NCBI GenBank assembly: GCA_900753325.1
Contig: CAADYO010000009.1
Span: 2,333-66,332 of the forward strand
Length of the DNA stretch: 64,000 nt
Direction of reading: 5' to 3'
Origin: Bacilli bacterium
GTDB taxonomy: Bacteria; Bacillota_I; Bacilli_A; RF39; UBA660
Positions 9,258 to 59,297 of this stretch are shown here, one piece after another. The notes beneath the pieces were generated by a model. It was not told the origin of the DNA, did no database searches, and was given only the letters and a program-made list of their open reading frames with translations. Each line of letters starts with the position of its first letter. The first letter of the stretch is position 1. The position numbers and the translations under genes are program-made.

Positions 9258-9317
9258 ACTATCTCTCCTTCCGCCATGACAACACTTGTCATAGTAATTA
9301 AATGCGTTATTAGTATA

Positions 9318-37452: not shown

Positions 37453-38358
37453 TTACCTCCCTGATTCTAAGTTCATTATTTCTAGTAGTCTATTTAAATC
37501 ATTACCGTTAACAAAACTAATTTCAATTTTATTATTTTTAATTTTTACTTTAGTTCCTAATTTTTCGCAAAGTTCCTCTTGCAAGTATTCATATTCTGGA
37601 ATAATCTTCTTTGGTTTTCTTTTTATCTCATGAACACGTAAAAACTTTTCATTTGATTGAGTCATATTTTCTAACTCGCGGACACTTAAACCTTCTTCTA
37701 CAACTTTTTTAGCAAGGTCTATCTGCTGTTCTGTATTTTCTAGTTTGCTTATTATTCTAGCATGTCCCATACTTAAACTTTTATTGCTAAGACTTTTTTG
37801 TACCTCTTCTGGTAGAGTTAATAAACCTAGCATGTTGGTTATATGGCTTCTACTTTTTCCTAATCTATTTGCTAATTCTTCTTGAGTTAGGGATAATGAT
37901 TCTAATAATTTTTTATAGGCAGTTGCTTCTTCTATGGCATTTAGATCTTCTCTTTGAAGATTCTCTAATAAAGCAATTTCCATCATTTCATCATCTGAAA
38001 AGTCACGTATAATAGCCGGTATTTCATCTAATCCAGCTATTTTAGAAGCTTTTACTCTTCTTTCTCCAGCAATTATTTCATAACCTTTAATACTTTTTTT
38101 TATGATTATTGGTTGGAATACTCCATGTTCCTTTATTGATGCTGCTAGTTCATTTAAAGCTGTTTCATTAAATACTTTTCTAGGCTGATATGGATTACTT
38201 CTTAATTCAGAAATTTTTACTAGTTTTATTTCTTCTTTTGGGGTTTCTGTTAAAATTTTTTCTTCTACTTTGCTATAATCAATTGGTTCATTGTAGAATA
38301 GTTCTTCTAATCCTCTTCCTAGTGCTCTTCTTTTATTATTGTTCTCCATTTCTTTCAA
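37453..38358 (-). CDS. parB: Chromosome partitioning protein ParB/Spo0J (parS-binding paralog)
   Basis: 301 aa; GERRVKA arginine patch. HTH recognition region RLGKSRSHITNMLGLL is Spo0J-type (R...N), in contrast to the Noc-type paralog at 39216. Confidence 0.85.
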   Translation of the reverse strand: MKEMENNNKRRALGRGLEELFYNEPIDYSKVEEKILTETPKEEIKLVKISELRSNPYQPRKVFNETALNELAASIKEHGVFQPIIIKKSIKGYEIIAGERRVKASKIAGLDEIPAIIRDFSDDEMMEIALLENLQREDLNAIEEATAYKKLLESLSLTQEELANRLGKSRSHITNMLGLLTLPEEVQKSLSNKSLSMGHARIISKLENTEQQIDLAKKVVEEGLSVRELENMTQSNEKFLRVHEIKRKPKKIIPEYEYLQEELCEKLGTKVKIKNNKIEISFVNGNDLNRLLEIMNLESGR

Positions 38359-39124
38359 TCACTTCCTTTGCTAAATTTAAGTATGCTTCTGATCCTCTAC
38401 TTTTTGGATCGTATACTATAATAGGTTCTCCATGCGATGGAGCCTCTGTTAATCTAACTAATCTAGGAATAATTGTATTATATACTTTTTCTTTAAAGAA
38501 TTTTCTAATGTCTTCAACTACTTCAAATCCTAAGTTCGTTCTAGAATCTAGCATTGTTAGTAAAACTCCTTCTATTACTAAATCTGGATTTAACGTCTTT
38601 TGAGCAAGCATGATTGTCTTTAAAAGCTGAGTTATTCCTTCTAGTGCAAAAAATTCACATTGTACTGGAATTATAACTGAGTTTGACGCTGTTAGAGCAT
38701 TTGTTGTTATGACGCCTAGTGATGGTGGACAATCTATAATTATATAGTCAAATCCATCTTTTATTTCTGATATATGTCTTTTTAATTGCTCACCTTTTTG
38801 AAAGCCACTTTCTTGTTTACTTTTTTCTACTAGTTCAATGTCTAGTCCAGCTAAATTAATTGTTGCTGGTAAAACATAAAGATTTTTATATTTTGTTTTA
38901 ATCATGGCTTCTGTAATTGTACATTCATCTATTAATACATCATAGATACTTCTTTCAATATCACCTTTGTTTATTCCGACACCAGTAGTTGTATTTCCTT
39001 GTGGATCTAAATCTATTAATAAAACTTTTTTCCCTAATACTGCTAATGATGCAGAAAGATTGATACTAGTTGTTGTTTTTCCTACTCCGCCTTTTTGATT
39101 TACTAATGATATAACCTTTCCCAT
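38336..39124 (-). CDS. parA: ParA/Soj partitioning ATPase
   Basis: 262 aa; deviant Walker A KGGVGKTT. Confidence 0.9.
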   Translation of the reverse strand: MGKVISLVNQKGGVGKTTTSINLSASLAVLGKKVLLIDLDPQGNTTTGVGINKGDIERSIYDVLIDECTITEAMIKTKYKNLYVLPATINLAGLDIELVEKSKQESGFQKGEQLKRHISEIKDGFDYIIIDCPPSLGVITTNALTASNSVIIPVQCEFFALEGITQLLKTIMLAQKTLNPDLVIEGVLLTMLDSRTNLGFEVVEDIRKFFKEKVYNTIIPRLVRLTEAPSHGEPIIVYDPKSRGSEAYLNLAKEVIERNGEQ

Positions 39125-39191: not shown

Positions 39192-39217
39192 TTAAAAAAA
39201 AGTAGATTTCTCTACTT
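39192..39217 (-). terminator. Intrinsic terminator after noc-like gene
   Basis: AAGTAGA-tttc-TCTACTT is a perfect 7-bp stem with T-run on the minus strand. It overlaps the stop codon. Confidence 0.5.
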
Positions 39218-40559
39218 ATTTATCTATTTTAATTATTACTTGATAAGCTGTTGCAAAATCCATTTCATCAAACGTTACTTTTCCACCATGATTTTCAATA
39301 TCTTTAACAACTTCACGAATTTTGTTAATAATTTGAGGCAAATCATAATTTCCAGTTGGAGCTTCAACTTGTGGGTTTGGAATATTTAATATACTACTTT
39401 GTTGTGTCGCTGCTGGTTGTTGAGTTGAAGAAATATTTTGTGGTAAATCTGTTGCTTTAATATTTGGCATATTAAAGTAATCCTTGATTGACTCTTCTTC
39501 TGCAGTAGCATCTCCCTTAACAATTGCTTCTGCTGGTGTTAAGTATTTTTGTTCTGATGGTTCTTGAGACTTTTGCTCATTGTTTTGACTAACAACTGGC
39601 GTAATATTTAATAAACTATCTAAGTCAGCTATTGGTTCATTTTGAATTGGTTTTATATCCATAGCATTTTCCTTTATTGTACTAACATCTACTGGTTGTA
39701 CTTCTACTTCATTATAATAAGAATCTTTTGGTTCTTCTACTGCTTCCTTATCTATTTCTCCGTAATTAATAAATTTTTGAACTGTTTGATTATTATTTTC
39801 AGTTGGTGGAGAAATTGTTACTTGTCCGTAATTCATAGGATTTGATGGCATAGCCGATGGTGTTGTTGAAGTACCAATAGTGGCATTTGCCGCAACTGAT
39901 GGTATTGTTTCACTTGCTTGGGTCATTTGAAATCCTTGTGATTCTCTTTTTGGACTTATTTTAGCTATTTCTTCCTCTACTGCTCTTACTGTCATTTTAT
40001 TTGTTATTATTTTCTTTAATAATTCTTTTTGTTGCTTAGCGTCTGGTAAATTTAGTAAGGCTCTTGCATGTCGTTCTGATATTTGTTCTTTTAAAAGTGA
40101 ATCTTGGACTTCATCTGGTAAGGCTAACAAACGTAATTTATTAGCAACAGCTGACTGACTCTTACCCATCGTTTTAGCTAGTTCATCTTGTGTCATTTGG
40201 TCAAGCTCCAAGATCTTTTGATATGTTCTAGCTTCTTCAATTGGATTTAGATTTTTTCTTTGAAGATTTTCTAGTAGAGCAACTTTAGAACTTTCTTTGT
40301 CATCAAGATCTCTTATTATTGCAGGGATTTTTGTCATACCAGCTAATGCTGAAGCTTTATAGCGACGTTCTCCGGCAATTATTTCATATTTACCATTAAC
40401 ACGTCTAACAATAATTGGTTGAATTACACCATGTTCTTTTATTGATAAAGCGAGTTCTTTTAAAGCTCTTTCATCAAATACTTCTCTTGGCTGGAAACGA
40501 TTTGGAATTATATCATCTAAGTATAAGTATACAACTTCATCTTTAGTTTCTGTATTCAT
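39216..40559 (-). CDS. noc: Noc-like ParB-family protein (NBS-binding paralog) with long low-complexity C-terminal extension
   Basis: 447 aa. The N-terminal about 255 aa align closely with B. subtilis Noc (IIPNRFQPREVFDE..ALKELALSIKEHGVIQPIIVR). The recognition helix GKSQSAVANKLRLL is Noc-type (Q..K), unlike Spo0J R..N. It sits in the conserved noc slot between rsmG and parA. There is no N-terminal amphipathic membrane peptide. Residues about 260-400 are Q/P/S/T/N-rich. Confidence 0.75.
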   Translation of the reverse strand: MNTETKDEVVYLYLDDIIPNRFQPREVFDERALKELALSIKEHGVIQPIIVRRVNGKYEIIAGERRYKASALAGMTKIPAIIRDLDDKESSKVALLENLQRKNLNPIEEARTYQKILELDQMTQDELAKTMGKSQSAVANKLRLLALPDEVQDSLLKEQISERHARALLNLPDAKQQKELLKKIITNKMTVRAVEEEIAKISPKRESQGFQMTQASETIPSVAANATIGTSTTPSAMPSNPMNYGQVTISPPTENNNQTVQKFINYGEIDKEAVEEPKDSYYNEVEVQPVDVSTIKENAMDIKPIQNEPIADLDSLLNITPVVSQNNEQKSQEPSEQKYLTPAEAIVKGDATAEEESIKDYFNMPNIKATDLPQNISSTQQPAATQQSSILNIPNPQVEAPTGNYDLPQIINKIREVVKDIENHGGKVTFDEMDFATAYQVIIKIDK

Positions 40560-40661
40560 TTTATCCCATCCCTCTATTCTTATTCTATTTTATTATAAAC
40601 TAATTTTATTAATCTTTCAACAGTATTTTTTAGAAGAAAAATATACCTATTAAGGTATATT

Positions 40662-41300
40662 CTATATTTTGTTTGTTATGACAAGTAAACTTCTTTGACT
40701 ATTTTCATATGGTAGGAGAAATTGTTCTATTTTTACAATGTTATATTTTTGACTTATTTTCTTTCTTGTTAAATCATTTAGTTCTTCTGAAATATTACCT
40801 TTCATAGCTATAAATACTCCATTTGGTGCTACTAAATGCATTGTATATTTTAGTAATTTTTCAATATTGGCTACAGCTCTTGCTGTTACAACATCATATT
40901 TTTCTTTTAGGTCTTCTCCTCTTGCGTGAATCGCAGTTATTCCATCTAAATTTAACTCTTTAATAATTGTATTTAGGTAATTTACTCTTTTTTGAAGAGC
41001 ATCAACTAATGTTATTTTTAAATTTGGATAAACTATTTTTAAAACTATTCCTGGAAAACCAGCACCTGTTCCAACATCACATAATGTTTTAGAGTTTTTT
41101 AAGTTTATTACTTTAGAAATTGTTAAACTGTCATAAAAATGTTTTAAATATACTTCTTCTTTAGATGTTATTCTAGTTAAATTTATTTTTTCATTCCATT
41201 CTATCAATAAATTATAAAACTGTTCTAATTGATTTATTTGTTTATCTGTTAGTTTTATACCTAACTTACTTGTTTCAATAATAAATTCTTCTTTAGTCAT
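40662..41300 (-). CDS. rsmG: 16S rRNA (guanine527-N7)-methyltransferase RsmG (GidB)
   Basis: 212 aa; SAM motif [10 protein letters not shown]. Confidence 0.9.
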
Positions 41301-46934: not shown

Positions 46935-47065
46935 ACAGTTTCCACAGATATGTGGAATATTAAAATAAGGTGTGTGGAATAAAAATTGTGGAAAATGTGG
47001 AAAAGTTATTTTTATTATTTTATATCAATAGTTTTATTTGTGGAAAAAATTGTGGATTGTGTGTT
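46935..47065. promoter_or_regulatory. oriC part 1: DnaA-box cluster and dnaA promoter region
   Basis: At least six 9-mers within 0-2 mismatches of TTATCCACA/TGTGGATAA (TTTCCACAG, TGTGGAATA x2, TGTGGAAAA x3, TGTGGATTG) in 130 bp upstream of dnaA. Confidence 0.7.
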
Positions 47066-47155
47066 GAAAAAAATTTTTACAATAAAATTGTTTATTTTTT
47101 TCACAATTTAATGTACACTAATCGTAGTTTATTTATCTTGTGGGGAGATGGTGGA

Positions 47156-48523
47156 ATGAATGTCGATATTATATGGACCAAATTTTTGGACCAAATAAAA
47201 GATGAACTTACTTCATTATCTTTCGATACTTGGTTTGCTGATACTACGTTGCATAGATTGGAAAATGGTAAAGCATATATAATTGTTCCAATGCCAATTC
47301 ATAAGAAACATTTAATTGATAATTATTCTGATCTCATTGTAAAAACGTTAAATGAGATTACAGGTACAAATTTTGAATTGGTATTGATTTTAAAAGAAGA
47401 AATAGAGGATGTTTTGCCTAAAAAAGTGGAAATTGAACCTGAGTTAGAAGGTGTTCCTAATAATAAAATTCAGTCTAATTTAAATGTTAAATATACTTTT
47501 GATAATTTTATAGTCGGTAATAGTAACAAATTTGCTCATGCAGCAGCTCTTTCTGTGGCTGAAAATCCTGGCAAAATGTATAATCCTTTATTTATATATG
47601 GAAATAGCGGATTAGGTAAAACTCATTTAATGCACGCAATTGGTAATTATATATTAGAAAATACTAATAAAAAAGTTTTATATGTTACGTCTGATCAATT
47701 TACACAGGATTTTATAAAGGTTAATAAAAAAGATGATTCTGGCACTAATTTTAATTATATTGATTTTTTTAAGAATAAATATCGCAATATTGATGTTCTT
47801 ATTATTGATGATATTCAATTTTTAGGTGGAGCTACTAAGACTCAACAGGAATTTTTCCACACCTTTAATTCTTTATATAATGATAGTAAACAAATAATTA
47901 TTTCCTCTGATAGATCTCCAGATGATTTAAAATTACTGGAAGATCGTCTAAGAACTAGATTTTGTTGGGGATTAACTGTTAACATATTTCCACCTGATTT
48001 TTCTTTAAGAATGCAGATTTTAAAGAAAAAAATAATTGGTGGTAATTTTGAAAAAGAAATATCTGAAGATGTTATTGAGTATATTGCATCTAATATTGGC
48101 ACTGATGTTAGACAATTGGAAGGTTCAATAACAAGGCTTATTGCTTATTCAACAATAATGGGTGGAGCAGAAATAACACTTGATTTAGCAATAGAGGCAC
48201 TTAAGGACTTTATTAGCAAGGGAATGAGCGAAAAAAATGACATTCAAAGAATTCAAAAAATTGTATCCGAATATTTTCAAATATCAGTTGAGGATATTAG
48301 AAGTAAAAAGCGGAGCTCTAATATTTCTTTTCCAAGACAAATTGCTATGTACCTGTGTAGGAATATGACAAATGAATCATTTCCTAAGATAGGAACAGAA
48401 TTTGGTGGAAAAGATCATTCAACAGTAATGCATTCAGTGGAAAAGATTGAAAATGAGATAAAAGTTAATAAAGATTTAGCTAATATAATAGAAAAGTTGA
48501 AAAAGGATATAGGTATTGTGTAA
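47156..48523 (+). CDS. dnaA: Chromosomal replication initiator DnaA
   Basis: 455 aa from ATG 47156 (RBS GGAGATGG). The track ORF starts 62 codons upstream and runs through the DnaA-box region. AAA+ Walker A GNSGLGKTHL; domain IV HTH. Confidence 0.9.
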   Translation: MNVDIIWTKFLDQIKDELTSLSFDTWFADTTLHRLENGKAYIIVPMPIHKKHLIDNYSDLIVKTLNEITGTNFELVLILKEEIEDVLPKKVEIEPELEGVPNNKIQSNLNVKYTFDNFIVGNSNKFAHAAALSVAENPGKMYNPLFIYGNSGLGKTHLMHAIGNYILENTNKKVLYVTSDQFTQDFIKVNKKDDSGTNFNYIDFFKNKYRNIDVLIIDDIQFLGGATKTQQEFFHTFNSLYNDSKQIIISSDRSPDDLKLLEDRLRTRFCWGLTVNIFPPDFSLRMQILKKKIIGGNFEKEISEDVIEYIASNIGTDVRQLEGSITRLIAYSTIMGGAEITLDLAIEALKDFISKGMSEKNDIQRIQKIVSEYFQISVEDIRSKKRSSNISFPRQIAMYLCRNMTNESFPKIGTEFGGKDHSTVMHSVEKIENEIKVNKDLANIIEKLKKDIGIV

Positions 48524-56296: not shown

Positions 56297-56312
56297 ATTT
56301 CCTGGGAAATAA
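56297..56312. promoter_or_regulatory. Noc-binding site (NBS) variant, TATTTCCTGGGAAATA
   Basis: One central substitution (C to T) relative to the 16-bp NBS palindrome TATTTCCCGGGAAATA. Confidence 0.55.
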
Positions 56313-56362
56313 TTTGTCACTATATTTTATTATCAGTTCTACTTATTTTTTTTATAGTTTTA

Positions 56363-56378
56363 TGTTTCACGTGAAACA
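56363..56378. promoter_or_regulatory. parS: parS site, perfect 16-bp palindrome TGTTTCACGTGAAACA
   Basis: Exact match to the Firmicute parS consensus tGTTtCACGTGAAACa; flanked A/T, which extends the palindrome to 18 bp. Confidence 0.8.
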
Positions 56379-56483
56379 TTGTATTATTTTCATACTTGGA
56401 TTTTTTTTGCTCTAAAAAAACATTACATTTTTACAGAATTATATTTTATGTATGTTTATTTTAGTTATATTCATCCAAAAATT

Positions 56484-56499
56484 ATTTCCCGGGAAATAA
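56484..56499. promoter_or_regulatory. Noc-binding site (NBS), perfect TATTTCCCGGGAAATA within a 28-bp perfect palindrome
   Basis: AAAAATTATTTCCCGGGAAATAATTTTT (56477-56504). CCCGGG is very rare in a 27% GC genome. Confidence 0.75.
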
Positions 56500-56556
56500 T
56501 TTTTAATGTATTTTATGTCTATTTTACTCATTTGTAATTTTTGCCTATTTAATTAA

Positions 56557-56572
56557 TATATCACGTGAAATA
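56557..56572. promoter_or_regulatory. Chimeric parS/NBS-like palindromic site TATATCACGTGAAATA
   Basis: The central CACGTG core is parS-type. Outer positions 2 and 15 (A and T) are NBS-type. Position 4 (A) matches neither consensus. Confidence 0.45.
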
Positions 56573-56776
56573 TTGCAATGGTGTATGTGGTCATTTTATT
56601 TATTTTATAATGATAGATTTTTGTTTACGATAATCGCATAGTGTTATATAAGTTTTTTTGCATAAGTATTTTACGAAAATATATCTAATATTTTATATTC
56701 TTATAAAAATCTAAATTTTGATAATATTATTTTAAAGTTATTTTCTTGGAGATACTTTTAGTAATGCATGTGCTTA

Positions 56777-56792
56777 TGTTTCACGTGAAACA
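56777..56792. promoter_or_regulatory. parS: parS site, perfect TGTTTCACGTGAAACA
   Basis: Identical 16-mer to the other two intergenic parS copies. Confidence 0.8.
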
Positions 56793-56886
56793 TATAATTT
56801 ACTTTGATTTATTATTATTGATCTTTATTTTATGTTTTAACTAATATTTTATAATATTTAAATATTTGATTAATTTTTTATAAAAT

Positions 56887-56902
56887 TATTTCCCGGGAAA
56901 TA
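56887..56902. promoter_or_regulatory. Noc-binding site (NBS), perfect TATTTCCCGGGAAATA
   Basis: Embedded in the 24-bp palindrome AAATTATTTCCCGGGAAATAATTT (56883-56906). Confidence 0.75.
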
Positions 56903-56936
56903 ATTTATTATGGCAAGTATCTTTAATATATATTAA

Positions 56937-56952
56937 TGTTTCACGTGAAACA
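56937..56952. promoter_or_regulatory. parS: parS site, perfect TGTTTCACGTGAAACA, 11 bp upstream of the ffs -35
   Basis: The 20-bp palindrome AATGTTTCACGTGAAACATT (56935-56954) sits immediately upstream of the ffs promoter TTTACA-17-TAGAAT. Confidence 0.8.
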
Positions 56953-56963
56953 TTAAAATTTCA

Positions 56964-56992
56964 TTTACAAAAAGTTACATATATATTAGAAT
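56964..56992 (+). promoter_or_regulatory. Sigma-A promoter of ffs (SRP RNA)
   Basis: -35 TTTACA (56964-56969), 17-bp spacer, -10 TAGAAT (56987-56992); transcription start about 6-8 nt downstream. Confidence 0.6.
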
Positions 56993-56998
56993 AATATC

Positions 56999-57079
56999 GT
57001 GCAATGAAAGCGGTGGAAACAGGTCAGGATTGGAAAATAGCAGCCTTAACATTAAACTTTCATGTGCACTTTTTATTTT
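56999..57079 (+). ncRNA. ffs: Small (4.5S-type) signal recognition particle RNA
   Basis: ACAGGUCAGG-AUU-GGAA-AAU-AGCAGCC reproduces the universally conserved SRP RNA domain IV (helix 8): symmetric loop AGG / AGCAGCC closed by a 3-bp stem and GGAA tetraloop. The terminal stem GUGCAAUGAAAG / CUUUCAUGUGCAC closes the hairpin. A U-tract (TTTTTATTTT, 57070-57079) follows. The ORF-track N-terminus of the tadA ORF (57004) overlaps this RNA and is spurious. Confidence 0.65.
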
Positions 57080-57090
57080 GGGTGATTATT

Positions 57091-57546
57091 ATGAATATGA
57101 AATATATGAAAATTGCTTTTGAAGAGGCAAAAAAAGCTTTTGATGAAGATGAAGTGCCTGTTGGTGCTGTTATAGTTAAAAATGGAGAGATTATTGCTAG
57201 AGCACATAATAAAAAGGAACAGCAAAATTGTGCTTTATATCATGCTGAAATTTTGGCTATAAAAGAGGCTTGTAAAACTGTTGGTAATTGGCGTCTTAAT
57301 AATTGTGATTTATATGTTACTTTATCTCCTTGCCCTATGTGTGCTGGCGCAATTAAACAGTCTCGAATTAAAAATGTGTATTCTGGTTTATCTAATTTAG
57401 ATATATCTAATTTGAATATTGTTAGGAAAATATTTATCTCTGATGATGTTAACCCAACTGTTAATTTTATTGATAACTTGTATTCTGAAGAAGTGAATAT
57501 GTTGTTGAAAAAGTTTTTTGAAAATAAAAGAAGTACAACTAAATAG
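57091..57546 (+). CDS. tadA: tRNA-specific adenosine-34 deaminase TadA
   Basis: Start at MNMKYMKIAFEEAKKA (RBS GGGTGA). Zinc ligands HAEILAI and SPCPMCAGA. Confidence 0.9.
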   Translation: MNMKYMKIAFEEAKKAFDEDEVPVGAVIVKNGEIIARAHNKKEQQNCALYHAEILAIKEACKTVGNWRLNNCDLYVTLSPCPMCAGAIKQSRIKNVYSGLSNLDISNLNIVRKIFISDDVNPTVNFIDNLYSEEVNMLLKKFFENKRSTTK

Positions 57547-57590: not shown

Positions 57591-59297
57591 ATGTATCATG
57601 CTTTATATAGAAAATATAGACCTCAAACATTTGATGATGTTGTAGGACAGAACTCTATTGTTACAACGCTTAAAAATTCGATAATCAATAAGACTTTTTC
57701 ACATGCTTATATGTTTTTTGGACCGAGAGGTACTGGAAAAACAACAGTTTCTAAAATTTTTGCTAGATCTATTAATTGTTTGAGTCCAGTTGATGGCTGT
57801 GCTTGTGGAAAATGTGATGCTTGTCTTCATTCTTTTGAAAAAGAATGTGTTGATATTATTGAAATAGACGCTGCTAGTAATAATGGTGTTGACGAAATAC
57901 GTGAACTTAAGAACAAGATTTCCTTAGTACCAGCTGAACTAAAATATAAAGTGTATATAATAGATGAAGTTCATATGCTATCTATTGGTGCTTTTAATGC
58001 TTTGCTTAAAACTTTAGAAGAGCCGCCTGAGCATGCTGTCTTTATTTTGGCTACTACTGATCCACAGAAAGTGCCAGAAACTATTATTTCTCGTTGTCAG
58101 TGTTTTTCTTTTAAAAGAATTTCTGAAAACTCTATTGTGGAAAGATTAAAAAATATTACCAATAAAGAAAATATTGCTATTGATGATAGTGTCTTAAATG
58201 ATATTGCTAATTTTTCTGATGGTGGGTTACGTGATGCATTAGGTTTATTAGATAAACTTAGTTCGTACACTAATAAGAAAGTTACTGCTGATTCTTTTGC
58301 TGAACTTAATGGTACTATTACAAATGCTGAACTGGAAAAATTTTCCAATTTGGTTTTTACTGGTGATATTTCTAGTATATTATTAAGCATTGAAACTTTT
58401 AATGACTCTGGTAAAAATTTAATTCAGGTTATTACTCAATTAATGAATTATTTACGCAATTTACTATTTTTATATTATACAAAGGGAGTTGAATTGATAG
58501 CTCCAATTGATCAAGTTATTAATTTGACTAATGTTATCAATAATAAGTTATTTGATATTAAAAAGACTGGTAATCCACGTGTATATATTGAAATGTTATT
58601 GATTGAATATGTGGAAAAAAATATTTTAAAAAGTAGTAATAAAATTATTTCCCGGGAAATAATTTCAAACGAATCTGTTGAAAAAGAAGAAACTAAAGTA
58701 CCACAAACAAATGTTTGCTATAGTCAAGACGATACTGTAGTACAGGAAACTAATAATGATTCAAAAAAGAATGTTTTGAGTGAAAACGTTGATATGCATG
58801 GTAGTTCTTCTAATGAGTGCGTTATTTTAAATATTAATGAAATTATGAAGGCTCGTGTTAATAATATTATGGCTGAAGCAAATAAAAAACTATTAAATGA
58901 TGTTATTAATAGTATTGGTATATTTAATGACTATACTTTTGATACTGAGATTGGCTTTGTTGCTTGTGCTTTATTGGATGCTAAAATACGTGCTGTAAGT
59001 AATAAGGGTATTATAATTAGTTATGAATATGATTCTATTGTGAAACAAAATATTTTGAATTTGAAAAAAATAACGGAAGTTTATAATAAGTTAACTAATT
59101 CTAATTATTCATTTGCTATTATCTCTGATAGTGATTGGAATACTGCAAAAGCTGATTATATTAAAACTATAAAATCTGGTGGTACTTATGAAATTATGAT
59201 TGAACCAGCTGAAGAAATATTGGAAGTGGATAAAAAAAATGATATAATATCTAATAGTGCAATTGAACTATTTGGTGATATTGTTGAAATTGATTAA
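57591..59297 (+). CDS. dnaX: DNA polymerase III subunit tau/gamma (DnaX)
   Basis: Start at MYHALYRKYRPQTFDDVVGQ; Walker A GPRGTGKTT; Zn module CxxC-CxxC; SRC motif. Confidence 0.9.
   Translation: MYHALYRKYRPQTFDDVVGQNSIVTTLKNSIINKTFSHAYMFFGPRGTGKTTVSKIFARSINCLSPVDGCACGKCDACLHSFEKECVDIIEIDAASNNGVDEIRELKNKISLVPAELKYKVYIIDEVHMLSIGAFNALLKTLEEPPEHAVFILATTDPQKVPETIISRCQCFSFKRISENSIVERLKNITNKENIAIDDSVLNDIANFSDGGLRDALGLLDKLSSYTNKKVTADSFAELNGTITNAELEKFSNLVFTGDISSILLSIETFNDSGKNLIQVITQLMNYLRNLLFLYYTKGVELIAPIDQVINLTNVINNKLFDIKKTGNPRVYIEMLLIEYVEKNILKSSNKIISREIISNESVEKEETKVPQTNVCYSQDDTVVQETNNDSKKNVLSENVDMHGSSSNECVILNINEIMKARVNNIMAEANKKLLNDVINSIGIFNDYTFDTEIGFVACALLDAKIRAVSNKGIIISYEYDSIVKQNILNLKKITEVYNKLTNSNYSFAIISDSDWNTAKADYIKTIKSGGTYEIMIEPAEEILEVDKKNDIISNSAIELFGDIVEID
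58646..58661. promoter_or_regulatory. Noc-binding site (NBS), perfect TATTTCCCGGGAAATA, inside the dnaX coding sequence
   Basis: Embedded in AAAATTATTTCCCGGGAAATAATTT (58641-58665). It encodes KIISREIIS of DnaX. Confidence 0.65.

What the first reader, a model, noticed from the sequence alone, without database searches (positions are those of the whole stretch)
39216..40559. Noc paralog lacks the N-terminal membrane-targeting helix and carries a ~190-aa low-complexity C-terminal extension
The N-terminal 255 aa are clearly Noc-like: they sit in the conserved noc position and have the NBS-type recognition helix GKSQSAVANKLRLL. The protein starts only about 17 residues before the ParB-box region, at MNTETKDEVVYLYLDDIIPNRFQPR. 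It has no basic amphipathic peptide like the B. subtilis Noc N-terminus (MKHSFSRLFGLGEK...) that tethers Noc to the membrane.

Instead the C-terminus is extended to 447 aa. It has a Q/P/S/T/N-rich disordered segment, then a final block of about 45 aa: GNYDLPQIINKIREVVKDIENHGGKVTFDEMDFATAYQVIIKIDK.

Membrane association is essential for nucleoid occlusion in the Bacillus model. This protein may therefore act differently, for example as a second centromere-binding or condensing factor on the NBS array. Alternatively it may reach the membrane or divisome through the new C-terminal module.
Basis: partly seen in the sequence, partly recalled or inferred. Interest (0 to 1): 0.65.

Follow-up and report, generated by a model that had tools for sequence, protein, structure and literature searches.

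The report
Headless Noc with long acidic linker
This gene encodes a Noc-lineage DNA clamp that lacks the membrane-anchoring N-terminal helix held to be essential for Noc function. It carries a ~200-residue acidic disordered linker instead, and the same form is found across a very large clade of uncultured gut Bacilli, next to origin-proximal arrays that mix Noc and ParB binding sites.

Summary
ORF 39216-40559 (-) encodes a 447-aa protein in the rsmG-noc-parA-parB position. It starts about 20 residues later than canonical Noc, and no upstream start is possible. One correction: the final 45 aa are not a new module. They are the canonical Noc C-terminal domain (profile-profile probability 97.8%, E 7e-13, against 0.4% for the ParB CTD). 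The "extension" is therefore a ~200-aa expansion of the linker between the DNA-binding domain and the CTD, which is about 11 basic residues in Bacillaceae.

The same architecture appears in all 384 relatives sampled, including 150 clusters at 50% identity. None has an N-terminal membrane-targeting sequence. In the 133 cluster representatives whose linker could be delimited, it is 88-544 aa and always net-negative, with conserved short motifs.

Phylogeny, specificity residues (Q-K-A-R) and perfect NBS sites place the protein in the Noc lineage. In the window the NBS sites sit with parS sites in one array between gyrA and dnaX, about 8 kb from dnaA. The same syntenic mixed array occurs in 104 metagenome contigs.

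Best reading: a CTP-gated, NBS-loaded clamp that shares a composite centromere with ParB and acts through the motif-bearing disordered linker rather than through direct N-terminal membrane binding. I rate it a new variant of a known kind. The function is inferred, not shown.

The parts
39216..40559 (-). noc-lineage gene, 447 aa (stop codon 39216-39218)
   Evidence: ORF list and sequence. Best solved-structure matches are Noc 7nfu, 7ng0 and 7ol9. TIGR04285 scores 297 bits.
40260..40532 (-). ParB/Noc N-terminal CTPase domain (res 10-100) with FQPR, GERRYKA and ENLQR boxes
   Evidence: Pfam PF02195, E 1.1e-34. These residues are invariant across the family. pLDDT 73-88.
39957..40256 (-). HTH DNA-binding domain (res 102-201). 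The recognition helix GKSQSAVANKLRLL lies at 40125-40166. Specificity residues are Q-K-A-R.
   Evidence: Pfam PF17762, E 1.2e-35. Foldseek matches Noc DBD-NBS 6y93 with TM 0.89-0.90. Specificity residues were read against PMC7383237.
39354..39956 (-). Expanded acidic disordered linker (res 202-402, net charge -16)
   Evidence: No Pfam hit. pLDDT below 50 except at short motifs. Composition and charge. The canonical linker is about 11 aa with charge +5.
39603..39695 (-). Bipartite linker motif A+B (res 289-319): PVDVSTIKENAMDI ... ADLDSLLNI
   Evidence: Motif A occurs in 49 of 133 linkers of 50%-identity cluster representatives, against 0.1 expected by shuffling. The composite A+B motif is found almost only in Noc ORFs (36 hits against 1 elsewhere). 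Motif A forms a short helix with pLDDT about 71.
39459..39491 (-). Linker motif C (res 357-367): SIKDYFNMPNI. This is the local form of the family motif [KR][FY]F[ND]..
   Evidence: Conserved in the close family. [KRG][FY]F[NDKQE] occurs in 35 of 133 linkers, against 3 expected. Sequence contexts are listed.
39219..39353 (-). Canonical Noc-type C-terminal dimerisation domain (res 403-447; helix, strand, strand)
   Evidence: hhalign against the Bacillaceae Noc CTD gives probability 97.8%, E 7e-13. Against the ParB CTD of the same genomes it gives probability 0.4%. pLDDT 68-88.
40565..40595 (-). Ribosome-binding site (GAGGGATGGG, 40565-40574) and double in-frame TAA (40590-40595) that rule out a longer N-terminus
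38336..39124 (-). parA/soj
   Evidence: Pfam AAA_31, CbiA and ParA
37453..38358 (-). Canonical parB/spo0J (301 aa, N-terminal RRALGRGLEELF motif, ParB_C)
40662..41300 (-). rsmG (gidB), upstream neighbour that defines the noc position
   Evidence: The order rsmG-noc-parA-parB holds in 71 of 80 related genomes.
56297..56952 (.). Composite array. NBS at 56297-56310 (1 mismatch), 56484-56497 and 56888-56901. parS at 56363-56378, 56777-56792 and 56937-56952. A hybrid site at 56557-56572.
   Evidence: Chance expectation is 2.9 NBS-like and 0.27 parS-like matches at up to 3 mismatches in the whole window. The same syntenic array occurs in 104 metagenome contigs.
58647..58660 (.). Fourth NBS (perfect), inside dnaX

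Best explanation
The gene encodes this lineage's Noc ortholog, a ParB-family CTP-gated DNA clamp.

The proposed mechanism:
- The clamp loads at NBS sites.
- It dimerises through a canonical Noc C-terminal domain.
- In this lineage the NBS sites seen here are concentrated with parS sites in one composite array about 8 kb from dnaA. Noc and ParB clamps would then be loaded side by side onto origin-proximal DNA.
- The N-terminal membrane-targeting helix has been lost.
- The short basic linker between the DNA-binding domain and the CTD has been replaced by a 90-540-aa acidic disordered linker. It carries conserved short motifs: A 'VDINxIKxNAxDI', B 'ADLDSLL' and C '[KR][FY]F[ND]'.
- I infer that the effector function has moved to this linker. 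On this reading the linker recruits one or more partners, or possibly the membrane through motif C, to the Noc/ParB nucleoprotein complex at the origin. The protein would not press bulk chromosomal DNA directly against the membrane as B. subtilis Noc does.

Shown: domain identities, loss of the MTS, the nature and conservation of the linker, cognate sites and their arrangement.

Inferred: CTP clamping, NBS binding, what the motifs do, and the cellular role.
For: **Noc lineage**
- The best solved-structure matches are Noc structures by sequence and by fold.
- TIGR04285 scores 297 bits for this protein against 242 for the local ParB.
- An NJ tree of the NTD+DBD core separates ParB from canonical plus headless Noc in 100 of 100 bootstraps.
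- The CTD is Noc-type and not ParB-type.
- The order rsmG-noc-parA-parB holds in 71 of 80 genomes.
- The specificity residues are Q173, K179 and R201.
- CTPase boxes FQPR, GERR and ENLQR are invariant.

**MTS loss**
- 0 of 384 family members have an MTS-like N-terminus, against 115 of 120 canonical Noc proteins.
- Stop codons lie upstream in the window and in the 80 related genomes.

**Linker**
- Two AlphaFold2 runs predict it disordered.
- All 133 measured linkers are net-negative and 88-544 aa long. The canonical linker is about 11 aa with charge +5.
- The motifs are strongly enriched over shuffled linkers, and the composite A+B motif is specific to Noc ORFs.

**Sites**
- The window holds 3 perfect NBS, 1 near-perfect NBS and 3 perfect parS sites. 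All but one NBS lie within 656 bp between gyrA and SRP RNA/tadA/dnaX.
- 104 metagenome contigs carry the same syntenic mixed array, with up to 18 alternating sites.
- Only two discrete palindrome classes occur in these arrays.
- Only 1 NBS (up to 1 mismatch) is found in 1.42 Mb flanking noc in 80 genomes.
Against: - No experiment or complex prediction links the linker motifs to any partner.
- AlphaFold2 gives no sign that the motifs dock on the folded domains.
- The genome-wide NBS distribution is unknown. Only the 64-kb window and homologous flanks were seen, so NBS sites could also be scattered elsewhere as in B. subtilis.
- The excess of NBS-parS alternation over label shuffling largely disappears once one seed pair per contig is discounted: 295 observed against 287 expected.
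- Array-bearing contigs and headless-noc contigs could be linked directly only in the window itself.
- The protein scores below the TIGR04285 cut-off (297 against 315).
- K184 is missing.
- At least one relative (L185) has no parAB beside it.
Confidence: 0.5

Rival explanations
1. Relocated membrane anchor. The protein is still a DNA-membrane tether. Linker motif C is an internal amphipathic membrane-targeting sequence that replaces the lost N-terminal helix, and the long linker simply provides reach. Motif C reads '[KR]PG[KR]FFN[FL][LF]' in distant members and 'KDYFNMPNI' here.
For: - The motif C core [KR]FFx[LF] resembles the canonical MTS core FS[RK][FL]FG[LI]G.
- It is enriched in linkers, 35 of 133 against 3 expected.
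- Like the canonical MTS, it is followed by acidic residues.
Against: - The window's own version (KDYFNMP) is degenerate.
- The motif sits in a strongly acidic segment, which should be repelled by anionic membranes.
- AlphaFold2 predicts no helix there, with pLDDT about 30-40.
- The strongest amphipathic segments in the protein are the CTD helix and core helices, not the linker.
- The resemblance is a lead from inspection and not a test.
Confidence: 0.15
2. Partner-independent physical role. The long acidic disordered linker acts as an entropic or electrostatic bristle, or enlarges the clamp lumen. It would tune ParB/Noc condensate properties or exclude other factors from origin DNA without any specific binding partner.
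For: - All 133 linkers are net-negative, with very variable length and sequence (88-544 aa) and some tandem repeats or N-rich tracts.
- This pattern suggests selection on bulk properties.
Against: Motifs A, B and C are conserved in sequence and order across deep divergence. Selection on bulk properties does not explain that.
Confidence: 0.15
3. Degenerating or vestigial Noc in reduced, fast-evolving genomes. The MTS loss would be loss of function and the linker would be neutral junk. A mis-called start or assembly artefact is a related possibility.
For: - The clade has reduced, fast-evolving genomes (PMC10868615).
- The protein scores below the NCBIfam cut-off.
Against: - The NTD, DBD and CTD are highly conserved, with dozens of invariant catalytic and DNA-contact residues across 150 clusters.
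- Perfect NBS palindromes are maintained in a 29% GC genome.
- The architecture is identical in 384 independent sequences and 80 species genomes, with stops upstream.
Confidence: 0.04
4. Independent, convergent ParB duplicate. The protein would not be a Noc ortholog but a lineage-specific ParB paralog that converged on NBS-like specificity.
For: Over the NTD+DBD the window protein is as similar to its own ParB (52.6% identity) as to B. subtilis Noc (48.5%).
Against: - Tree split, 100 of 100 bootstraps.
- Shared Noc-type CTD that has no similarity to the ParB CTD.
- Same synteny as B. subtilis noc.
- Same 14-bp NBS core.
Confidence: 0.05

Closest known systems
Noc (nucleoid occlusion protein) of Bacillus subtilis, Geobacillus thermoleovorans and Staphylococcus aureus (TIGR04285; PDB 7nfu, 7ng0, 7ol9, 6y93)
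   Same: - ParB-type CTPase N-domain and HTH DNA-binding domain, 48-55% identical.
- Noc-type specificity residues Q173, K179 and R201.
- The same NBS core, ATTTCCCGGGAAAT.
- A Noc-type C-terminal domain.
- No LG[RK]GL ParA-binding motif.
- The same chromosomal position between rsmG and soj-spo0J.
   Different: - It has no N-terminal amphipathic membrane-targeting helix. Adams et al. 2015 found that helix in all homologues they examined and showed it is required for function.
- K184 is replaced.
- The ~11-aa basic linker is replaced by a ~200-aa acidic disordered linker with conserved short motifs.
- The NBS sites seen here are clustered with parS near the origin rather than scattered.
- It scores below the NCBIfam cut-off.
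Chromosomal ParB/Spo0J
   Same: Same fold and CTP-clamp boxes. The loading sites lie in the same origin-proximal array, and the gene is adjacent to parA.
   Different: - It has a Noc-type recognition helix and CTD.
- It has no N-terminal ParA-stimulating peptide.
- It has a long acidic linker.
- A separate canonical ParB is encoded 1 kb away.
Geobacillus NocNdelta26 (engineered truncation lacking alpha1/alpha2; PDB 7ng0)
   Same: The natural protein starts at almost the same position as this laboratory truncation, which still forms the CTP-type N-domain dimer (PMC8429893).
   Different: This is a natural, conserved form with a full CTD and an added linker. The engineered form is non-functional for membrane binding in the Bacillus system.
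KorB (RK2) and other ParB-CTPase proteins with effector regions outside the clamp
   Same: It is a ParB-fold clamp whose downstream function depends on interactions other than ParA stimulation, and a flexible region separates the DBD from the dimerisation domain.
   Different: KorB is a plasmid transcriptional regulator with a different CTD and partner (KorA). There is no sequence relationship beyond the shared fold.

Membership tests
Noc (nucleoid occlusion protein, TIGR04285) | ParB/Srx-type N-terminal CTPase domain with FQPR, GERRxR and ENLQR boxes | tested here: met
   PF02195, E 1.1e-34. The boxes are invariant in the family alignments. The fold matches 7nfu. CTP binding itself was not tested.
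Noc (nucleoid occlusion protein, TIGR04285) | HTH with NBS-specificity residues Q173, K179, K184 and R201 (Jalal 2020) | tested here: met
   The window protein reads Q-K-A-R and the clade reads Q-K-x-R. PMC7383237 reports that a lysine at 179 or 184 is sufficient as the permissive residue. K184 itself is absent.
Noc (nucleoid occlusion protein, TIGR04285) | Cognate NBS sites (ATTTCCCGGGAAAT) present in the genome | tested here: met
   Three perfect sites and one with a single mismatch. No shuffle of 100 reached the observed count.
Noc (nucleoid occlusion protein, TIGR04285) | NBS sites scattered around the chromosome and depleted at the terminus | not testable with these tools
   Only 64 kb plus homologous flanks were visible. 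What is visible is clustered with parS near the origin.
Noc (nucleoid occlusion protein, TIGR04285) | N-terminal amphipathic membrane-targeting helix (residues 1-10/15) | tested here: not met
   The protein starts at the equivalent of Geobacillus residue ~20-23. Residues 2-12 have charge -2 and hydrophobic moment 0.12. 0 of 384 relatives have an MTS-like N-terminus, against 115 of 120 canonical proteins. No upstream start exists.
Noc (nucleoid occlusion protein, TIGR04285) | Noc-type C-terminal dimerisation domain | tested here: met
   hhalign probability 97.8%, E 7e-13, over the last 45 residues. The control against the ParB CTD gives probability 0.4%.
Noc (nucleoid occlusion protein, TIGR04285) | Score at or above the curated NCBIfam cut-off (315 bits) | tested here: not met
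   297.3 bits. Only model positions 1-207 of 255 align, because the linker expansion separates the CTD.
Noc (nucleoid occlusion protein, TIGR04285) | Gene between rsmG (gidB) and soj-spo0J | tested here: met
   The order holds in 71 of 80 related genomes.
Noc (nucleoid occlusion protein, TIGR04285) | Phylogenetic placement with Noc rather than ParB | tested here: met
   The NJ split has 100 of 100 bootstrap support. Sampling was limited: canonical Noc came from Bacillaceae only, and ParB from this clade only.
Noc (nucleoid occlusion protein, TIGR04285) | Recruits DNA to the membrane and blocks Z-ring assembly over the nucleoid | not testable with these tools
   This needs localisation, liposome and genetic experiments.
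Canonical chromosomal ParB | N-terminal ParA-stimulating LG[RK]GL peptide, parS-type specificity residues (R173, G201) and a ParB_C domain | tested here: not met
   The motif is absent from the N-terminus. The residues are Q173 and R201. The CTD does not match the ParB CTD. The neighbouring 301-aa gene meets all three criteria.

The most novel reading that the evidence does not exclude
A very large clade of gut Bacilli has repurposed Noc. In Bacillus it tethers DNA around the chromosome to the membrane. In this clade it would be the second clamp of a two-protein composite centromere, in which alternating NBS and parS sites load Noc and ParB side by side next to oriC. Its output would be delivered by short motifs in a long acidic disordered linker, for example origin anchoring or positioning, or control of division or replication initiation from the origin. 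That would be a type of bacterial centromere organisation and a Noc mechanism not previously described.
Probability: 0.3. Interest if true: 0.8.

Novelty: new variant of a known kind. Interest (0 to 1): 0.62.

Why it matters
The current model of Noc rests on simultaneous DNA and membrane binding through a 'highly conserved' N-terminal helix that is switched by CTP (Adams 2015, Jalal 2021).

A deep, abundant natural clade contradicts the assumed universality of that mechanism. It keeps the clamp, the NBS specificity and the CTD. It has dropped the helix and reversed the linker from short and basic to long and acidic.

This gives the field a natural experiment on what Noc does without membrane binding.

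The mixed NBS/parS arrays suggest direct functional coupling of Noc and ParB at the origin. That bears on unexplained observations that Spo0J and Noc act together (PMC6852036) and that Noc affects replication initiation in S. aureus (PMC5540599).

All components are small and can be tested in vitro or in B. subtilis, even though the hosts are uncultured.

Tried and rejected
- **Hidden upstream start or separate small ORF encoding the helix.** Rejected. There is a double stop 10 codons upstream, only about 100 bp of intergenic DNA, and the same picture in 80 genomes.
- **New C-terminal module.** Rejected. It is the Noc CTD.
- **Plain HMM of the Bacillaceae CTD against the window protein.** Only weak (9.6 bits). 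The link needed profile-profile comparison and intermediates from the family.
- **Folded domain hidden in the linker.** No Pfam hit. Two AlphaFold2 runs with 18 and 52 sequences leave it disordered and show no docking of the motifs.
- **Taxon names for distant members.** Cluster look-up and a profile search returned no organism names. Only the close family could be placed: uncultured Bacilli / 'Tenericutes' / Mycoplasma sp. CAG:877 / Ca. Faecimonas. The assignment to the RF39 order rests on my own knowledge of GTDB and was not tested.
- **NBS or parS near noc in relatives.** Essentially none within +/-10 kb, so array and gene could not be linked on the same fetched locus outside the window.
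- **Strict alternation statistic.** It is weakened by how the contigs were selected.
- **Motif B as a beta-clamp-binding, FtsZ-tail-like or ParA-peptide-like motif.** Considered from memory. The sequence fits are poor or untestable here, so nothing is claimed.
- **Literature.** Searches found no description of headless Noc or of NBS/parS arrays.
Full report
**1. The observation**

The ORF at 39216-40559 on the minus strand is real and encodes 447 aa. Its ATG follows a GAGGGA ribosome-binding site. Upstream in frame there are ten codons with no ATG, GTG or TTG, and then two TAA stops at 40590-40595. The gap to rsmG is about 100 bp. A longer N-terminus is therefore impossible.

All neighbours are on the minus strand: mnmE, mnmG, rsmG, this gene, parA, parB, an MscS-like gene and DUF951. 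On the other side lie jag, yidC, dnaA, dnaN, recF, gyrB and gyrA. This is the classical Bacillus origin region, and the gene sits in the noc slot.

**2. Domains**

- Pfam finds ParB_N at residues 10-100 and HTH_ParB at 102-201. It finds nothing after residue 201.
- NCBIfam TIGR04285 (Noc) is the best model at 297 bits, below its 315-bit cut-off. Only model positions 1-207 of 255 align.
- The best solved-structure relatives are Noc of Geobacillus and B. subtilis, by sequence (E 9e-63) and by fold (Foldseek E 5e-22, 54% identity).
- Query residue 4 aligns to Geobacillus residue 23 and query residue 5 to B. subtilis residue 26. In Geobacillus Noc, residues 1-10 form the membrane-targeting helix alpha1, followed by alpha2 and an 8-residue loop (PMC8429893).
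- The natural protein is therefore equivalent to the laboratory N-delta-26 truncation.
- Its first residues are acidic and not amphipathic.

**3. The C-terminus is not new**

Two AlphaFold2 runs, with 18 and 52 aligned sequences, agree:
- NTD and DBD are confident.
- Residues ~205-402 are disordered, apart from short helices at 292-298 and 342-348.
- Residues 407-446 form a confident helix-strand-strand unit.

A profile of this terminal block from the family aligns to the last 45 residues of Bacillaceae Noc (SRDTRIAMNTIRQSL...YIQLTIRIPK) with probability 97.8% and E 7e-13. Against the ParB CTD of the same genomes the probability is 0.4%.

The extra length is therefore an expansion of the DBD-CTD linker. 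In canonical Noc that linker is about 11 residues with charge about +5 (QGKRKPKPRRKA in B. subtilis). Here it is about 200 residues with charge -16.

**4. Distribution**

- A search of 5.8 billion proteins gave a dense family of 394-477 aa at 57-100% identity.
- A profile search of 1.84 billion cluster representatives gave 150 best clusters at 50% identity. They are 221-798 aa long, the shortest being contig-end fragments. Apart from a few probable mis-called starts they begin within a few residues of the ParB box.
- 0 of 384 family members have an MTS-like N-terminus, against 115 of 120 canonical Noc proteins. The proline of PNRFQPR is at about position 17-19, against 37-57 in canonical Noc.
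- In the 133 cluster representatives whose linker could be delimited, it is 88-544 aa (median 238) and every one is net-negative, from -10 to -85.
- In one-genome-per-species contigs, 409 stretches encode close relatives. The 80 retrieved are uncultured gut and rumen 'Bacilli', 'Tenericutes', 'Mycoplasma sp. CAG:877' and Ca. Faecimonas MAGs.
- 71 of those 80 show rsmG-noc-parA-parB, and none hides an upstream helix.
- One more distant member (601 aa) lies after rsmG but is followed by uvrB, with no parAB next to it.

Loss of the helix and gain of the long acidic linker therefore co-occur without exception in what was sampled.

**5. Is it Noc?**

- On the NTD+DBD core, an NJ tree separates this clade's ParB proteins from canonical plus headless Noc in 100 of 100 bootstraps.
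- Specificity residues are QKKR in canonical Noc, QKxR in the headless clade (QKAR here) and RMxG in the local ParB.
- Jalal et al. 2020 showed that Q173 and R201 read the NBS-specific bases and that a lysine at 179 or 184 suffices as the permissive residue.
- The CTD is a shared derived Noc character.
- Raw identity to the local ParB (52.6%) is no lower than to B. subtilis Noc (48.5%). The tree, the CTD and the synteny therefore carry the argument.
- I file the protein in the Noc lineage, but not as a canonical Noc, because the defining membrane-targeting helix was tested and is absent.

**6. Cognate DNA sites**

The window (29% GC) contains three perfect ATTTCCCGGGAAAT sites, one with a single mismatch, and three perfect parS sites (TGTTTCACGTGAAACA). 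Both counts are far above the shuffle expectation.

Six of these seven sites, plus one hybrid site, lie within 56297-56952 in the order NBS, parS, NBS, hybrid, parS, NBS, parS. This stretch is the gap between gyrA and SRP RNA/tadA/dnaX, about 8 kb from dnaA. The fourth NBS is inside dnaX.

A metagenome scan for an NBS within 25-55 bp of a parS found 104 contigs (GC 0.20-0.33):
- Nearly all show the same gyrA-array-tadA-dnaX synteny, with GyrA 52-93% identical.
- They carry up to 18 strictly alternating sites.
- Across them there are 298 NBS and 395 parS sites.
- 75% of neighbouring pairs are mixed, with a median spacing of 50 bp. The excess over label shuffling is modest once the selection criterion is discounted.
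- Only the two discrete palindrome classes occur.

Only one NBS is found in 1.42 Mb flanking noc in 80 genomes. This differs from B. subtilis, where NBS sites are scattered and parS sites are separate (PMC8429893, PMC7383237). The genome-wide picture could not be obtained here.

**7. The linker**

Within the close family there are conserved islands:
- NYGxVTIxPP
- KFINYGEID
- PVDVxxIKENAxDI
- ADLDSLLNI
- TPAEAIVK
- KDYFxxPN

Three of these extend across the wider clade, in conserved order:
- Motif A, [DN][IVL][DNSE]x[IML]xxx[AS]x[DE][IL], in 49 of 133 linkers against 0.1 expected.
- Motif B, (A)DLDSLL-like, 8-15 residues after motif A.
- Motif C, [KR][FY]F[ND].

The composite A+B motif is essentially confined to Noc ORFs. 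In distant members motif C reads '[KR]PG[KR]FFN[FL][LF]..acidic', which resembles the core of the canonical MTS (FS[RK][FL]FG[LI]G). This is a lead only. AlphaFold2 does not dock any motif on the folded domains.

**8. Mechanism**

Shown:
- An intact ParB-type clamp module with Noc-type DNA-recognition residues.
- A Noc CTD.
- Loss of the helix.
- An acidic, disordered, motif-bearing linker.
- Cognate sites interleaved with parS next to the origin.

Inferred:
- The protein loads at NBS as a CTP-gated clamp beside ParB.
- Its output runs through linker motifs, either by recruiting a partner or, less likely, through a relocated membrane anchor.

Rivals are a bulk-property role of the linker, a vestigial protein and a convergent ParB duplicate. 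The last two are poorly supported.

**9. Literature**

- Adams et al. [quoted passage not shown]
- Jalal et al. 2021 built the CTP-switch model on that helix.
- The 2025 survey of the ParB-CTPase fold lists Noc as retaining the canonical architecture.
- I found no paper describing headless Noc, long-linker Noc or mixed NBS/parS arrays.
- The hosts probably have peptidoglycan walls and may sporulate (PMC10868615). Loss of the helix is therefore not explained simply by a wall-less lifestyle.

**10. Verdict**

The protein is a new variant of a known kind, it is widespread, and it is coupled to an undescribed site arrangement. Function remains inferred.

Interest 0.62.

Noticed in passing
window 56297-56952 and 58647-58660; loci L081-L184: An interleaved array of Noc-binding (NBS) and ParB-binding (parS) palindromes lies between gyrA and SRP RNA/tadA/dnaX. 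The same syntenic array occurs in 104 metagenome contigs. Some arrays alternate strictly, up to 18 sites in L132. The median NBS-parS spacing is 50 bp.
   Followed up: yes
window 56557-56572: A hybrid palindrome, TATATCACGTGAAATA, has the NBS-type outer base and the parS-type inner base. Such hybrids are very rare in the other arrays: about 10, against 330 parS and 255 NBS.
   Followed up: partly
protein P0211 (221-aa contig-end fragment from the representative library): A ParB N-terminus (KRRALGRGLEELF...NPYQPRKVF) is fused in frame to a Noc-type body (GKSQSAVSNKLRLL, SERHAR). It is either an assembly chimera across the shared QPR-VFDE box or a natural parB::noc recombinant.
   Followed up: partly
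locus L185 10001-11806 (GCA_016283075.1): A 601-aa headless Noc lies after rsmG but is followed by uvrB, with no parA/parB beside it. No NBS or parS site was found within the 19 kb held.
   Followed up: partly
window 56990-57085 and 57004-57546: A bacterial small SRP RNA (51.7 bits) overlaps the first ~27 codons of the mechanically called 180-aa ORF. The real gene is a tadA-like deaminase that probably starts at 57082.
   Followed up: partly
window 9265-9294 (-): A match to the L31-Firmicutes ribosomal-protein leader, just above its gathering score.
   Followed up: no
window 46970-48523 (+): dnaA is called as 517 aa from a GTG, and its DnaA_N domain starts only at residue 68. Either the N-terminus is unusually long or the start is called too early.
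   Followed up: no
linkers of distant family members (e.g. P0225, P0178, P0190): Some linkers contain tandem peptide repeats (PEFNFVNQEPE repeated 9 times in P0225) or Asn-rich tracts of more than 400 residues. The linker evolves by repeat expansion.
   Followed up: no
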